From positions 44,444-108,443 of the IMG/VR virus record IMGVR_UViG_3300033418_000001: a DNA stretch of 64,000 bases. One strand, given 5' to 3'. The position numbers and the translations under genes were made by a program. This stretch comes from a virus. The notes under the pieces were generated by a model. The model did no database searches. It had not been told where the DNA came from and was given only the letters and a program-made list of their open reading frames with translations. Below are positions 43,815 through 46,314 of this stretch, one piece after another (within the stretch, counting starts at the first letter, position 1; every line of letters begins with the position of its first letter).

Positions 43815-44203
43815 TGCTCGTCTTTTGCAGATGTCTGCACGGACCCGCCGATGGTCTTCACCGCGTCCAACTCGGTCTTGACGGGCGGGAACTCCACCTT
43901 CTCCACCCACAGCCACAACAGGTAGGCGCACGTCGCCGTCTTGTCCTCATGGCGAGGCTCCCACGACCGCAGGATCGACGCCACGTGCTTGTACGCCGCC
44001 TCGGCGCTGACGCCCTCCTTGGTGTAGAACAGCGTGCCCTGCGGCAGTCCTTCGAAGAACCACCGGTCCACGACCTTGCACCATGGGTCGGTGCCGTCGC
44101 AGAACCTTTCGGGGATGTCATCCGGCGGCAGCAGGGACCGCAACTCTTCCCCGTAGGCACCGAAGGCGCGAACCGCATCGGTGGTGACTCTTGGCATGAA
44201 CAT
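43811..44203 (-). CDS. Hypothetical phage protein
   Basis: AAAGGAGTG RBS; WFFEG...SWEPRHEDK. Confidence 0.65.
   Translation of the reverse strand: MFMPRVTTDAVRAFGAYGEELRSLLPPDDIPERFCDGTDPWCKVVDRWFFEGLPQGTLFYTKEGVSAEAAYKHVASILRSWEPRHEDKTATCAYLLWLWVEKVEFPPVKTELDAVKTIGGSVQTSAKDEQ
43826..43839. repeat. 14-bp quasi-palindrome copy 12
   Basis: Gene end just upstream of primase (QTSA). Confidence 0.95.
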
Positions 44204-44219
44204 CAGGCACTCCTTTGCT

Positions 44220-44788
44220 GACGATGGGATTGCCCCTTACGGGGGCAAGTCGCTTCTCCATGGCCACTTCACTGAAGACTCACTCTCCGAAGAGGGCTTG
44301 GTGGTATGCAGCGGTGGGGGAATCAGCAGTCCCGCATCCTCGGGTAGGCGGGGCATCAGCCCCTAACCACACTTCTAACCCTAAGACTCACCCTGTCTCG
44401 CGCTACCGGCATCCTTGTGGGACTCGATGTACCCACTAAGGAGGGCGTCTAGCTGCACACTACCAAACCCACTTCGGAGAGCGGGGGGAGGCATCGTAGC
44501 TGATAGCCACCCCCACTCCGGTTTCCCCACGATCACTGAGCCTGAGACGAGAACGATATAAGACCGGTGTCCTGAGCCACTAGACGACCCCCCTGTGGTA
44601 CGCGCTACGCCGCGCAGTGGCAGGAGGGGCGGGATTTGAACCCGCGTTTCCGATCAAGTTGTGGGCGAACTTGATCCTCAAAATCAGTGCCCACGTCCCA
44701 GTGTTCGTGCCTTACGATACCGATGTCTTGGCAATACGACAGTCAGTGACGACTACGCCAACGACAACGATAACGCTGCCAAGCCCTC
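44220..44788 (-). ncRNA. Large structured ncRNA candidate containing a permuted tRNA-like domain
   Basis: No credible ORF; 30-bp inverted repeat 44283-44312/44452-44481 whose mismatches include two G-U wobbles on the minus strand; hexamer tracts; tRNA halves. Confidence 0.7.
44563..44654 (-). ncRNA. Circularly permuted tRNA-Glu-like element (3' half precedes 5' half)
   Basis: ATCGG-AAAC-GCGGG-TTCAAAT-CCCGC-CCCTCCT-G-CCA (44654-44618), 23-nt linker, then AGGGGGG-TC-GTC-TAGTGGCTCAG-GAC-A-CCGGT (44594-44563); acceptor and anticodon stems pair across the halves. Confidence 0.8.
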
Positions 44789-45559
44789 CTATGCCTTGAG
44801 CGGCGCGAGCAGGATCGCAACCACCTTGTCCGCGATCTTCTCGGTCACCGCTTCCGTTTCGTTCGCGCGCATCCGCGCCTGCTTGACCTCCACCATCAGG
44901 TCATCGACCACCTTGATGGCTTCGGCCTTTTGCAGCGCCGTGCACGCACCGCTTCGCTTGGTGATGGAGTTCTTCCCCACCACGATGTCCTTGTTCACCG
45001 CCGCCACCTGCGCCGGGTGCTTGTCCGTCGCCGGGGACATCTGCACCGGCACCGTGACCTTCTCGGTCTTGGTGGTCTCGTCGGGGAACTTGGTCTCCCA
45101 GATGCCGACACCCAGATCGCCCGCCTTGACCCAGTGCTTGGTGGCATCGAGCGTCGGCATCTCGGCATACAGCGCCCGCAGACGCATCAGCCGCGCTTCC
45201 AGACCGAGCAGTTCATCCACCGGCAGGCCGGGGAGCAGCACGGTGCCGCGCCACATCACGTCGCCCGTCGCCTTGCGATTGGTCGCGTTCTTCTGGTACT
45301 GAAGGTCTTCCGCCTTGGCGAAGATGTCGAGCGCGTAGGTGAGCGTGTCGAGGACCGTGGTGGTCACCGGCTTCTCTTCCCGCGCCGCCGCCTCGATGGC
45401 CGCGTTCTCGGGCGTGCCCTCGATCATGGTGAGGGACTTGCTGTGGCCTTCGAAGAAGTGACCGACGTTCTTGAACTTCTTCAGCGTGTCCTCGTACAGA
45501 GCATTCCACGCCCCGGTGGGCGTCTTCTCTGCGGCGAGCAGTTCGTGCAGCTTTGCCAT
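44789..45559 (-). CDS. Uncharacterised protein directly upstream of the ncRNA
   Basis: MAKLHELLAAEK...PATDKHPAQV...KQARMRAN; own promoter and RBS. Confidence 0.8.
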   Translation of the reverse strand: MAKLHELLAAEKTPTGAWNALYEDTLKKFKNVGHFFEGHSKSLTMIEGTPENAAIEAAAREEKPVTTTVLDTLTYALDIFAKAEDLQYQKNATNRKATGDVMWRGTVLLPGLPVDELLGLEARLMRLRALYAEMPTLDATKHWVKAGDLGVGIWETKFPDETTKTEKVTVPVQMSPATDKHPAQVAAVNKDIVVGKNSITKRSGACTALQKAEAIKVVDDLMVEVKQARMRANETEAVTEKIADKVVAILLAPLKA

Positions 45560-45599
45560 GGTTCTCACTCCTTTGGTTGGATGACGACAACGAGATGTG

Positions 45600-45627
45600 A
45601 TTCTACTACGTGTTTCCGAAGTGTCAA
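45600..45627 (-). promoter_or_regulatory. Sigma70-type promoter of the protein+ncRNA unit
   Basis: TTGACA-N16-TAGAAT, then AAAGGAGTG. Confidence 0.8.
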
Positions 45628-46314
45628 CTACTCCTTCGGGGCAGGCAACTCGATGGGGGGCTTCTCCCCCTTCAGCACAGCAAGCCCAGTGCGAGACACG
45701 ATGCTGCTGACGTAAGCCTCCACCTCGGTCTTGGCGTCCTCGGTGACCTTCTCCATGTGTTCTCCGAACTGCTCCGCGACGAACTTGACGGAGGAGGTTA
45801 CACCATAGCCCGCCACCTCCAAGGCCATGAGGATTTCCTTCTTCGCCTTGGCCGACAGGCTAGTGCCCTCGATCATGGTCCGCACCTTGTCCAACCCCGC
45901 GTTGGTCTTGAGCAACGTCTTCTTCATCTCCACAGCGAACTGATCCTGCCGCCTCTCCGGTGGGGGCAAGCCCGGGATGTTGTAGTTGCCCTTCACGGCC
46001 AACAGAGTGCAGGGGGTGCCGCTGCCGACGTTGAGCGTGGAGATGAACGTGGCCCACTGCGCCTCCGACATCTCCACCTCGGTGATGAGGCCGCGAGCGA
46101 AGTGCCAGTCCCGCGACAAGCTGCGATGCAACTCGCTGTGCTTGATTTCGATGCGGATGGTGTTGTGGTGGGTGAAGTCGGAAGCGTACAACTGCGTTTG
46201 GCCACTCACCCGATGCGCGACGATCTGCGCGAAGGCCGGGTGCGTGGTCACCGTCTCCGACACCACGGAGGTGCCCTTCTCTGTGACGGGCTTCTCGATG
46301 GGCCGCATCGTCAC
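45628..46314 (-). CDS. Hypothetical phage protein
   Basis: HPAFAQI...EVEMSEAQWATFIST.N.G.G.PCTL. Confidence 0.65.
   Translation of the reverse strand: MTMRPIEKPVTEKGTSVVSETVTTHPAFAQIVAHRVSGQTQLYASDFTHHNTIRIEIKHSELHRSLSRDWHFARGLITEVEMSEAQWATFISTLNVGSGTPCTLLAVKGNYNIPGLPPPERRQDQFAVEMKKTLLKTNAGLDKVRTMIEGTSLSAKAKKEILMALEVAGYGVTSSVKFVAEQFGEHMEKVTEDAKTEVEAYVSSIVSRTGLAVLKGEKPPIELPAPKE

What the first reader, a model, noticed from the sequence alone, without database searches (positions are those of the whole stretch)
44220..45627. Candidate protein + large ncRNA ribonucleoprotein unit with hexamer-periodic tracts and a switchable long stem
SEEN: a dedicated promoter drives a 256-aa unknown protein. 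Its stop codon is followed at once by ~570 nt without a credible ORF, the longest such gap I found in the window. Besides the permuted tRNA, this region has three tracts of 5 x 6-nt periodicity (plus strand): 44749-44778 acgact/acgcca/acgaca/acgata/acgctg; 44529-44558 acgatc/actgag/cctgag/acgaga/acgata; 44363-44392 ctaacc/acactt/ctaacc/ctaaga/ctcacc. It also has a 30-bp stem (44452-44481 with 44283-44312; 26 WC + 2 G-U on the minus strand), a 5' segment GAGGGCTTGG-CAGCG (44788-44774) complementary to the same 3' arm and therefore mutually exclusive with that stem, and hairpins at about 44651-44676 and 44230-44248. INFERENCE: the upstream protein oligomerises on the hexamer tracts to form an RNP that displays the tRNA mimic, a plausibly undescribed phage system.
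Basis: partly seen in the sequence, partly recalled or inferred. Interest (0 to 1): 0.88.

Follow-up and report, generated by a model that had tools for sequence, protein, structure and literature searches.

The report
Phage tRNA-mimic RNA with DUF7873 partner
A phage gene of unknown function (DUF7873) is followed by a conserved folded RNA of about 320 bases built around a back-to-front tRNA look-alike; the gene and RNA travel together in nearly every related phage, so they probably form an RNA-protein particle that I did not find in the RNA library or the papers I searched.

Summary
A strong sigma-70-like promoter drives a 256-aa DUF7873 gene. Its stop codon is followed by about 585 nt with no recognisable ORF. 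The conserved part is a roughly 320-nt RNA (44788 to about 44476, minus strand) with these elements in order:
- P1, a hairpin whose loop is a 6-nt-periodic UCGU tract
- a UAUCGUAAGG junction
- P2, a long-range helix that encloses a circularly permuted tRNA-like domain (T arm, acceptor 3' strand, GCCA, spacer, acceptor 5' strand, D arm; no anticodon loop)
- P3, a hairpin with a conserved loop

In 111 of 129 distinct DUF7873 loci a strict scan finds the permuted tRNA-like domain downstream on the same strand. A covariance model recovers nearly all the rest. No other neighbouring gene is conserved.

The 30-bp "switchable" stem, the third hexamer tract and the alternative 5' pairing lie in, or depend on, a window-specific 3' extension that even the closest relative lacks.

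The plan resembles YrlA Y RNAs, especially the Mycobacterium smegmatis form. However, the genome has no Ro60, no Ro-binding motif, no RtcB and no Band-7 gene, and it fails the Rfam YrlA and tmRNA tests. Protein-RNA binding, processing and function remain untested.

This scan has already noted the same module on other DNA in at least 170 genomes.

The parts
45600..45627 (-). sigma-70-like promoter TTGACA-16-TAGAAT for the DUF7873 gene and the RNA
   Evidence: 11 of 12 matches. It is the only promoter-like site in 44100-45750 (shuffles give a mean of 0.3).
44789..45559 (-). DUF7873 protein gene, 256 aa, with the leader AAAGGAGTG before the ATG
   Evidence: PF25283, E 5e-62, residues 1-251. AlphaFold2 model pLDDT 92.6. 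2,522 clusters at 50% identity in 1.84 billion proteins, all about 245-275 aa among the best 150.
44727..44783 (-). P1 hairpin: CUUGGCA (44777-44783) pairs with UGCCAAG (44727-44733).
   Evidence: I3; helix covaries: CUUGGC/GCCAAG, CUAGGC/GCCUAG, UCAGGC/GCCUGA, UUAGGC/GCCUAA
44710..44726 (-). conserved single-stranded junction ACAUCGGUAUCGUAAGG
   Evidence: alignment A4; motif table
44699..44709 (-). P2 5' strand (CACGAACACUG), pairs with 44528-44538
   Evidence: cognate duplexes average -18.5 kcal/mol against -10.0 for non-cognate pairs. The cognate partner is the best of 27 in 17 sequences and in the top three in 26 of 27.
44652..44676 (-). variable hairpin just 5' of the tRNA-like domain (9-bp stem). 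It is shared only with the closest relative.
44563..44654 (-). circularly permuted tRNA-like domain, in this order: anticodon-stem 3' strand AUCGG, variable loop AAAC, T arm 44629-44645, acceptor 3' strand plus GCCA 44618-44628, 23-nt spacer hairpin 44595-44617, acceptor 5' strand AGGGGGG 44588-44594, UC at 44586-44587, D arm 44569-44585, anticodon-stem 5' strand CCGGU 44563-44567. There is no anticodon loop.
   Evidence: all 21 pairs show changes on both sides; covariation 0.92 against 0.24 in shuffles; 68 bits; U8, A14 and GG each in 132/133; Levitt pair in 123/133; single copy in the genome
44546..44562 (-).
   Evidence: (D4)
44528..44538 (-). P2 3' strand (CAGUGAUCGUG), followed by the conserved GGGGAAACC (44520-44528)
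44476..44519 (-). P3 hairpin with the conserved loop core CAGCUACG (consensus CACGGCAGGYACGCACGG). This is the 3' end of the conserved RNA.
   Evidence: cognate -22.0 against non-cognate -12.8 kcal/mol; the cognate partner is the best of 27 in 18 sequences.
44283..44482 (-). window-specific 3' extension closed by the 30-bp stem. Its 5' arm overlaps the last 7 nt of the P3 3' strand (44476-44482). Function unknown.
   Evidence: I1; z -5.1; single copy in the genome; absent from relatives
44230..44248 (-). 7-bp hairpin UUGCCCC-CGUAA-GGGGCAA just before the leader of the next gene (130 aa, ATG at 44203)
   Evidence: It has no U tract, so the terminator scan does not call it.

Best explanation
This is one copy of a widespread, mostly viral two-part module. 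It consists of a DUF7873 protein and, co-transcribed directly after its stop codon, a structured non-coding RNA of about 320 nt.

The core of the RNA is a real tRNA-shaped domain written in permuted order. Its open 'anticodon' end continues into a long-range helix (P2). P2 is flanked by a hairpin that carries a 6-nt-periodic UCGU tract (P1), two more single-stranded UAUCGU motifs and a conserved hairpin (P3).

Inferred steps:
1. Host RNase P cuts at the 5' end of the acceptor strand (between 44595 and 44594).
2. The encoded GCCA end (44618) is exposed by 3' trimming.
3. This gives a two-piece RNA held together by the acceptor stem, the anticodon stem and P2, as shown experimentally for Mycobacterium smegmatis YrlA.
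4. A DUF7873 dimer or higher oligomer binds the conserved single-stranded repeat motifs.
5. The particle presents an anticodon-less tRNA module to tRNA-binding factors.

What is shown: conservation, covariation and gene linkage. What is inferred: processing, protein-RNA binding and the biological role. The most plausible roles are a decoy or tether for host tRNA-directed enzymes or defences, or RNA quality control as for Ro60 with Y RNA.
For: Gene-RNA linkage
- A strict structural scan finds the permuted element within 1.5 kb downstream, on the same strand, in 111 of 129 distinct DUF7873 loci that have at least 450 nt of downstream sequence. The median distance from the stop is 138 nt.
- Covariance model R1 recovers nearly all the others, including metagenome loci that were not used to build it.
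- No other gene is shared by more than 4 of 91 loci.
- In at least four loci the 5' strand of P1 includes the stop codon, so the RNA must be co-transcribed with the gene.
- Only one promoter-like site is found, and it lies upstream of the gene.

tRNA-like fold
- All 21 base pairs show changes on both sides.
- Features my scanner did not require are conserved across 133 distinct elements: U8 in 132, A14 in 132, GG in the D loop in 132. The Levitt pair covaries, with G15:C48 in 81 and A15:U48 in 42.
- NCCA follows the acceptor strand in 87 of 133 elements, and in 46 of 48 elements with a short spacer.

Rest of the RNA
- P2 and P3 pair far better with their own partner strand than with partners from other sequences. 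P1 covaries.
- Trinucleotide self-match in the 5' arms is 2.9 times expectation at lag 6, but only 1.15 at lag 3 and 1.08 at lag 9. TTATC is 11-fold enriched relative to the coding sequence.

Protein
- The family has a uniform single-domain length.
- A three-copy model gives ipSAE 0.55 against 0.00 for the best of 3 controls. The runs share at least 85% of contacts and the partner's pLDDT is at least 81. In the tool's calibration this mark was reached by 20 of 30 proteins solved as pairs of one chain and by 1 of 23 solved as single chains. The calibration used two copies and its own alignments, so it holds only roughly here.

Precedent
- M. smegmatis YrlA has a 7-bp acceptor stem, is cut by RNase P and receives CCA in vivo (PMC4201824).
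Against: - I obtained no transcript, processing or binding data.
- DUF7873 is near neutral: pI 6.55 here and a family median of 6.3.
- It shows no known RNA-binding fold. The best structural match is 3kdq_A, a protein of unknown function (Z 9.9, rmsd 7.6 A over 146 residues). No Foldseek hit reaches E 0.001 in the PDB or viral libraries, and there is no PDB sequence hit.
- Conserved synteny is also compatible with a protein that acts on or alongside the RNA without forming a stable particle.
- The RNA could equally work with host proteins.
- The homo-oligomer pass is only the model's own confidence.
Confidence: 0.55

Rival explanations
1. The RNA works with host proteins (RNase P, the CCA-adding enzyme, an aminoacyl-tRNA synthetase, EF-Tu, PNPase or a defence nuclease). 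DUF7873 is functionally linked to it but is not a stable RNA-binding partner. It could be, for example, an enzyme that modifies the RNA or acts on the same target.
For: - The protein has a near-neutral pI and no RNA-binding fold match.
- Invariant His, Glu, Asp, Lys and Arg residues (H5, E6, E11, E121, H181, D219, K211, R229) could form an active site rather than a binding surface.
- tRNA-type features differ between clades. The D arm is Glu-like here: a 23-nt match at 95.7% identity to an E. coli tRNA-Glu gene, E-value 0.5. Elsewhere it is Leu-like with A73 in 15 of 18 elements. This suggests the domain is recognised by host tRNA-specific factors.
Against: - The strict one-to-one linkage and co-transcription and the conserved single-stranded repeat motifs that flank the tRNA-like domain are most simply explained by a dedicated binding partner.
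- The only dedicated candidate is DUF7873.
Confidence: 0.2
2. The RNA is a cis-acting 3' UTR element of the DUF7873 mRNA. A tRNA-shaped 3' end would protect or process the message, with no function of its own in trans.
For: - The RNA starts at the stop codon and has no promoter of its own.
- tRNA-like ends protect RNAs from exonucleases; this argument is made for YrlA in PMC4201824.
Against: - About 320 nt with three further covarying helices, conserved loop motifs and a periodic tract is far more than a stabiliser needs.
- Some loci carry two tRNA-like domains (21 of 129).
- In L136-L138 the best model hit lies upstream of the gene.
Confidence: 0.12
3. It is a two-piece (permuted) tmRNA-like molecule that is aminoacylated and acts on ribosomes.
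For: - The gene order is permuted, with an encoded CCA, a spacer and then the acceptor 5' strand, as in two-piece tmRNA genes.
- In this window tract 1 can be read as a short frame ending in a stop codon.
Against: - G3:U70 is found in 0 of 133 elements, and the discriminator base varies.
- The tracts have period 6, not period 3.
- The putative frame has no conserved stop codon in relatives (reading).
- The element has a full D arm and an anticodon stem.
- ARAGORN finds nothing and Rfam tmRNA models give no match.
Confidence: 0.04
4. It is a permuted gene for a functional tRNA that is circularised or ligated into a normal tRNA, as in Cyanidioschyzon merolae.
For: All four tRNA stems and the tertiary-contact nucleotides are intact.
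Against: - No 7-nt anticodon loop can be assembled. The sequences flanking the anticodon stem are repeat motifs and run into helix P2.
- The genome has no RtcB.
- Rfam gives no group I intron match in the region at E up to 10.
Confidence: 0.03

Closest known systems
YrlA Y RNA with Ro60/Rsr, especially the Mycobacterium smegmatis form (Rfam RF02553; Chen et al. 2014, PMC4201824; Wang et al. 2018, bioRxiv 10.1101/312249)
   Same: - A non-coding RNA whose core is a tRNA mimic in the same permuted order (variable region, T arm, acceptor stem closed by a loop, D arm), with the RNA ends at the anticodon-stem position.
- The Levitt pair covaries.
- It is encoded next to its partner protein on the same strand, and it also occurs in phages.
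- The M. smegmatis form has a 7-bp acceptor stem, is cut by RNase P and gains CCA, giving two pieces. Here the 7-bp stem and GCCA are encoded.
   Different: - The genome has no Ro60/TROVE gene.
- There is no GNCGAAN0-1G Ro-binding motif: 0 in this RNA and 1 of 27 in the subfamily, against 4.1 in shuffles.
- The Rfam YrlA model scores 12 bits against a gathering score of 69, and only over the tRNA-like part.
- This RNA is two to three times longer, with P1 and its hexamer tract, P2 and P3.
- The linked protein is DUF7873.
Two-piece (circularly permuted) tmRNA of alpha-proteobacteria, some beta-proteobacteria and cyanobacteria (from my own knowledge: Keiler et al. 2000)
   Same: Permuted gene order with an internal CCA, an intervening spacer that is removed, and two pieces held together by base pairing.
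   Different: No G3:U70, no tag reading frame, a full D arm and a 5-bp anticodon stem. It is not detected by ARAGORN or by the Rfam tmRNA models.
[quoted passage not shown] I know this only as cited in bioRxiv 10.1101/312249; the 2016 paper itself was not held.
   Same: A tRNA-like RNA genetically paired with a protein other than Ro60.
   Different: The genome has no Band-7 gene and no RtcB gene. b7a-tRNA is described as closely resembling an authentic tRNA, whereas this RNA is permuted, lacks an anticodon loop and is embedded in a larger RNA.

Membership tests
Pfam DUF7873 (PF25283) | Full-length match above the curated cut-off | tested here: met
   210 bits against a cut-off of 27, residues 1-251. 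one search gives the same result on the whole genome.
YrlA / bacterial Y RNA (RF02553) | Encoded near, and bound by, a Ro60 (TROVE-domain) protein | tested here: not met
   no TROVE match in the 108-kb genome, which CheckV rates as 100% complete. The control genomes did give matches.
YrlA / bacterial Y RNA (RF02553) | GNCGAAN0-1G Ro-binding motif near the 5' end (PMC4201824) | tested here: not met
   none in 44204-44790; 1 of 27 subfamily RNAs has it, against 4.1 expected from shuffles.
YrlA / bacterial Y RNA (RF02553) | Score at or above the Rfam gathering threshold | tested here: not met
   12 bits against 69, E 1.2, model positions 30-81 only. It is the best hit in the genome and lies on the element. 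Searches list no YrlA match.
YrlA / bacterial Y RNA (RF02553) | Permuted tRNA-like module (T arm, capped acceptor stem, D arm) with tRNA tertiary contacts | tested here: met
YrlA, M. smegmatis form | RNase P cleavage and a CCA end in vivo | not testable with these tools
   The sequence is compatible: a 7-bp acceptor stem and an encoded GCCA. No read data could be obtained.
Two-piece tmRNA | G3:U70 alanine identity pair | tested here: not met
   0 of 133 elements. This window has G4:U69 instead.
Two-piece tmRNA | Conserved tag reading frame ending in a stop codon | tested here: not met
   period 6 without periods 3 and 9. The candidate frames have no conserved stop codon.
Two-piece tmRNA | Detection by ARAGORN or the Rfam tmRNA models | tested here: not met
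Permuted functional tRNA genes | Halves that can be joined into a 7-nt anticodon loop | tested here: not met
   the flanks are repeat motifs that lead into helix P2.
b7a-tRNA / Band-7 / RtcB system | Adjacent Band-7 protein and RtcB ligase | tested here: not met
   neither gene is found in the genome.

The most novel reading that the evidence does not exclude
DUF7873 and its RNA form a Ro60-independent tRNA-mimic particle. Phages would use it to intercept host factors that recognise the tRNA body (acceptor stem, T arm and D arm). Such factors include tRNA-directed defence nucleases, enzymes that modify the CCA end, and synthetases. The tRNA type being mimicked (Glu-like here, Leu-like or generic elsewhere) would be tuned to the host factor. 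That would be a new class of viral counter-defence or translation-control ribonucleoprotein.
Probability: 0.2. Interest if true: 0.9.

Novelty: new variant of a known kind. Interest (0 to 1): 0.76.

Why it matters
DUF7873 is a large family: 2,522 clusters at 50% identity. It is mostly viral and has no assigned function. The RNA linked to it is not in Rfam, and I found no paper on it.

If the pair is a particle, three things follow:
- tRNA-mimic ribonucleoproteins would extend beyond Ro60 with Y RNA.
- There would be a second natural case of a two-piece, RNase-P-processed tRNA mimic.
- A cultured system is available for testing: Ralstonia phage phiRSL1, ORF270 plus the unannotated gap downstream of it.

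It also matters for annotation. ARAGORN, Rfam and the deposited phage records all miss these 300-400-nt regions.

Tried and rejected
- tmRNA tag or mini-ORF in tract 1. In this window it reads A-A-L-S-L-S-L-A-stop. Rejected: relatives have no conserved stop codon, and the periodicity is 6, not 3.
- Stop-codon readthrough extension of DUF7873. Rejected: the frame is not conserved in relatives (reading).
- Shine-Dalgarno-like GGAG just after the stop codon. Not enriched: 18 of 129 loci against 16 in a control window.
- Loop-loop or pseudoknot pairing of the P3 loop with the UAUCGU junction, the 3' tract or the P1 loop. Cognate and non-cognate duplex energies are equal. Because the motifs are nearly invariant, pairing is not excluded; it is only unsupported.
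- The long-stem domain as a MITE-like repeat. It is a single copy in the genome.
- The 5' segment as a switch partner of the long stem. It is a 10-nt perfect match, roughly what chance gives in about 590 nt. It is not conserved, and the segment's covarying partner is P1.
- Group I intron (permuted intron-exon) route to a circular tRNA. No Rfam match.
- Fold and sequence searches for DUF7873 gave nothing interpretable: Foldseek against PDB and BFVD, VIA-align, a PDB profile search, NCBIfam, PADLOC, PHROGs and the ESM Atlas.
- Conserved neighbouring genes: none found.
- Small ORFs in the gap: no family match.
- Burroughs and Aravind 2016 could not be read.
- A search of 300 further genomes of the order of one MAG that carries the gene found no other copy.
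Full report
**What is in the window.** All features lie on the minus strand.
- A promoter, TTGACA-16-TAGAAT (45627-45600), matches 11 of 12 consensus positions. It is the only promoter-like site in 44100-45750 and starts right after the stop codon of the upstream gene.
- It drives an ORF from ATG 45559 to TAG 44789 (256 aa). The ORF matches Pfam DUF7873 over its full length, E 5e-62.
- The next gene (130 aa, phrog_36680, function unknown) starts at 44203.
- The 585 nt in between hold six small ORFs that match nothing in Pfam or PHROGs.
- ARAGORN finds no tRNA or tmRNA in the window or in the whole 108-kb virus record. Rfam finds nothing at gathering thresholds and nothing relevant at E up to 10.

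**The permuted tRNA-like domain.** Reading the sequence gives the following order:
- anticodon-stem 3' strand AUCGG
- a 4-nt variable loop
- a canonical T arm
- acceptor 3' strand CCCUCCU followed by GCCA
- a 23-nt spacer hairpin
- acceptor 5' strand AGGGGGG
- U8-C9
- a D arm with the GG dinucleotide
- anticodon-stem 5' strand CCGGU

These elements span 44563-44654. There is no anticodon loop.

I collected DUF7873 loci from three sources: 80 viral contigs, 10 genome contigs and 80 metagenome contigs.
- A strict structural scan requires 7/7 acceptor pairs, 5/5 T-arm pairs, at least 3/4 D-arm pairs and at least 4/5 anticodon-stem pairs. It finds the same permuted element downstream, on the same strand, in 111 of 129 distinct loci with at least 450 nt of downstream sequence. 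The median distance from the stop is 138 nt. Twenty-one loci carry two elements.
- A covariance model built from 58 of these elements (R1) scores the window's element at 68 bits (E 2e-17). It recovers nearly all the loci the strict scan missed, including metagenome loci not used to build it.
- The loci without any hit are ones where the contig ends just after the gene.
- On the 58-sequence alignment all 21 pairs show changes on both sides. The covariation score is 0.92, against 0.24 in shuffles and at most 0.21 with slid partners. These sequences were chosen by a scanner that requires pairing, so the percentage paired is by construction. The diversity of the pairs is not.
- Features the scanner did not require are the stronger evidence. 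Among 133 distinct elements, U8, A14 and the D-loop GG are each present in 132. The Levitt pair is G15:C48 in 81 and A15:U48 in 42.
- NCCA follows the acceptor strand in 87 of 133 elements, and in 46 of 48 with a short spacer. Short spacers mostly end in UAU before the acceptor 5' strand. Long spacers often extend the acceptor helix.

**The rest of the conserved RNA.** I aligned 27 RNAs from proteins at least 55% identical to the window's (A4).
- P1 is a 6-8-bp hairpin that starts within a few nucleotides of the stop codon. In at least four loci it includes the stop codon itself. It covaries: CUUGGC/GCCAAG, CUAGGC/GCCUAG, UCAGGC/GCCUGA, UUAGGC/GCCUAA.
- The P1 loop is the periodic tract.
- After P1 comes the junction ACAUCGGUAUCGUAAGG.
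- P2 is a long-range helix. It joins the 5' arm to the 3' arm, just before a conserved GGGGAAACC, and so encloses the tRNA-like domain. Cognate strands pair at -18.5 kcal/mol on average, against -10.0 for non-cognate pairs. The cognate partner is the best of 27 in 17 sequences and in the top three in 26.
- Right after the anticodon-stem 5' strand lies a second repeat motif, UUAUAUCGUUNUCGU.
- P3 is a hairpin with a conserved loop, consensus CACGGCAGGYACGCACGG. The window has the core CAGCUACG. Cognate strands pair at -22.0 kcal/mol against -12.8.
- In the window the conserved RNA therefore runs from about 44788 to 44476, roughly 320 nt.

**The hexamer tracts.** Across 103 loci the 5' arms show trinucleotide self-match at lag 6 at 2.9 times expectation and at lag 12 at 1.65 times. 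Lags 3 and 9 are at 1.15 and 1.08. The coding-sequence control shows the codon pattern: 1.52, 1.38, 1.50 and 1.68 at lags 3, 6, 9 and 12. The repeat is therefore a 6-nt RNA-level (or DNA-level) motif and not a reading frame. TTATC is 11-fold enriched over the coding sequence.

- In the window, Tandem Repeats Finder calls tract 1 at 44749-44775.
- Tract 2 shares a 12-nt direct repeat with tract 1. Its other half is the P2 3' strand.
- Tract 3 is not detected and lies outside the conserved RNA.

**The long stem.** The 30-nt inverted repeat is real: 87% complementary, 139 nt between the arms. It gives a very stable domain, z = -5.1.
- The whole stretch from about 44482 to 44204 is absent from every relative. 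In the closest one (L098, 76% protein identity), P3 is followed almost at once by the leader of a different downstream gene.
- The stretch is a single copy in the genome.
- Its 5' arm overlaps the last 7 nt of the P3 3' strand. A local competition with the base of P3 is therefore possible, but it is specific to this lineage.
The conserved partner of that 5' segment is the P1 3' strand.

**The protein.**
- The AlphaFold2 model is confident: pLDDT 92.6, pTM 0.66. It consists of long helices plus two beta-hairpins.
- It has no informative structural neighbour. The best is 3kdq_A, a Corynebacterium protein of unknown function (Z 9.9, rmsd 7.6 A over 146 residues). Foldseek finds nothing at E 0.001 or better in the PDB or in BFVD.
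- Profile searches of PDB sequences, NCBIfam, PADLOC and PHROGs give nothing.
- The family is large and uniform in length: 2,522 clusters at 50% identity, and the best 150 are all 244-280 aa. It is mostly viral according to the ESM Atlas clusters.
- In one bacterial order sampled around a MAG that carries it, no other copy was found among 300 further genomes.
- Invariant residues include H5, E6, E11, N94, E121, K211, D219, R229 and N233. H181 in the DKHPAQ hairpin tip is nearly invariant (at least 90%).
- The pI is 6.55, with a family median of 6.3.
- A three-copy complex model gave ipSAE 0.55 against 0.00 for the best of three controls. The interface is symmetric, the runs share at least 85% of contacts and the partner's pLDDT is at least 81. 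In the tool's calibration 20 of 30 true homomers and 1 of 23 monomers reached this mark. That calibration used two copies and its own alignments, so it holds only roughly here.

**Comparison with known systems.**
- YrlA. The plan matches YrlA Y RNAs. These have a tRNA-like domain in the same permuted order, are encoded beside Ro60 on the same strand, and occur in bacteria and phages. In M. smegmatis, YrlA is cut by RNase P and receives CCA, giving two halves bound by Rsr (PMC4201824). Membership fails on every specific test:
  - no TROVE gene in a genome rated complete
  - no Ro-binding motif
  - Rfam YrlA at 12 bits against 69, although that weak hit is the best in the genome and lies exactly on the element
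- Two-piece tmRNA shares the permuted gene order and the internal CCA. It fails on G3:U70 (0 of 133 elements), on a tag frame and on detection by ARAGORN and Rfam.
- The predicted Band-7-associated tRNA system fails because the genome has neither Band-7 nor RtcB.
- A functional permuted tRNA is excluded because no anticodon loop can be assembled.

**A lead on identity.** The 5' half of the window's element matches an E. coli tRNA-Glu gene over 23 nt at 95.7% identity, with E-value 0.5, so this is only a lead.
- The window's class has U8-C9, U11:A24 in 23 of 25 elements and a 4-nt variable loop in 23 of 25. From my own knowledge, these resemble the augmented D helix of tRNA-Glu.
- Other clades carry a Leu-type D arm with A73 in 15 of 18 elements, or a generic D arm.
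- The mimic may therefore be tuned to different tRNA-recognising factors. I did not test this further.

**Verdict.** The gene-RNA unit, the tRNA mimic and the periodic tracts are real and conserved. The "switchable stem" is not part of the conserved element.

The most likely mechanism is a DUF7873-RNA particle whose RNA is matured by RNase P into a two-piece tRNA mimic. I put this at about 0.55. Binding, processing and biological role are all inferred.

Earlier agents of this scan reached the same reading on other genomes. A later check recorded there put the odds at 90 in 100 for the observation and 22 in 100 for the bold reading. My own linkage count agrees with the observation: 111 of 129 loci by the strict scan and nearly all with the covariance model.

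Noticed in passing
L024:3603-3697 (Ralstonia phage phiRSL1, record NC_010811 about 189293-189387, minus strand): The cultured jumbo phage phiRSL1 carries the module. ORF270 is the DUF7873 homologue. The 484-nt gap between ORF270 and ORF269, which has no annotation in the record, holds the permuted tRNA-like element.
   Followed up: partly
window 45566-45574 and 44208-44216 (minus strand); also L098 about 1690-1700: The same leader, AAAGGAGTG, precedes the DUF7873 gene, the next gene (130 aa) and the unrelated downstream gene of the closest relative. This may be a shared translation signal of this phage group.
   Followed up: no
L017, L019, L031 (jumbo-phage contigs of 15-245 kb): Here the DUF7873 gene sits inside arrays of ordinary tRNA genes. 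The covariance model gives many weaker hits across tRNA-tRNA junctions. By contrast, the window's own genome has no tRNA gene at all.
   Followed up: partly
L136, L137, L138: 946-1036: In these three metagenome loci the best tRNA-mimic hit (62.7 bits) lies upstream of the DUF7873 gene (1201-1956) rather than downstream.
   Followed up: no
window 44476-44482: The last 7 nt of the conserved P3 3' strand are also the first 7 nt of the 5' arm of the window-specific 30-bp stem. The base of P3 and the outer end of the long stem therefore cannot form at the same time. The closest relative has a much shorter hairpin in the same place.
   Followed up: partly
window 44661-45302 (+) and 44930-45715 (+): Long plus-strand ORFs (213 and 261 aa) lie antisense to the DUF7873 gene. 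Their counterparts recur in relatives only as shadows of the DUF7873 frame, so they are most likely not genes.
   Followed up: partly
G001 and 300 genomes of its order: DUF7873 was found only in the MAG that served as the centre of the search, and in none of 300 other sampled genomes of that order. This fits a phage-borne gene rather than a bacterial core gene.
   Followed up: partly
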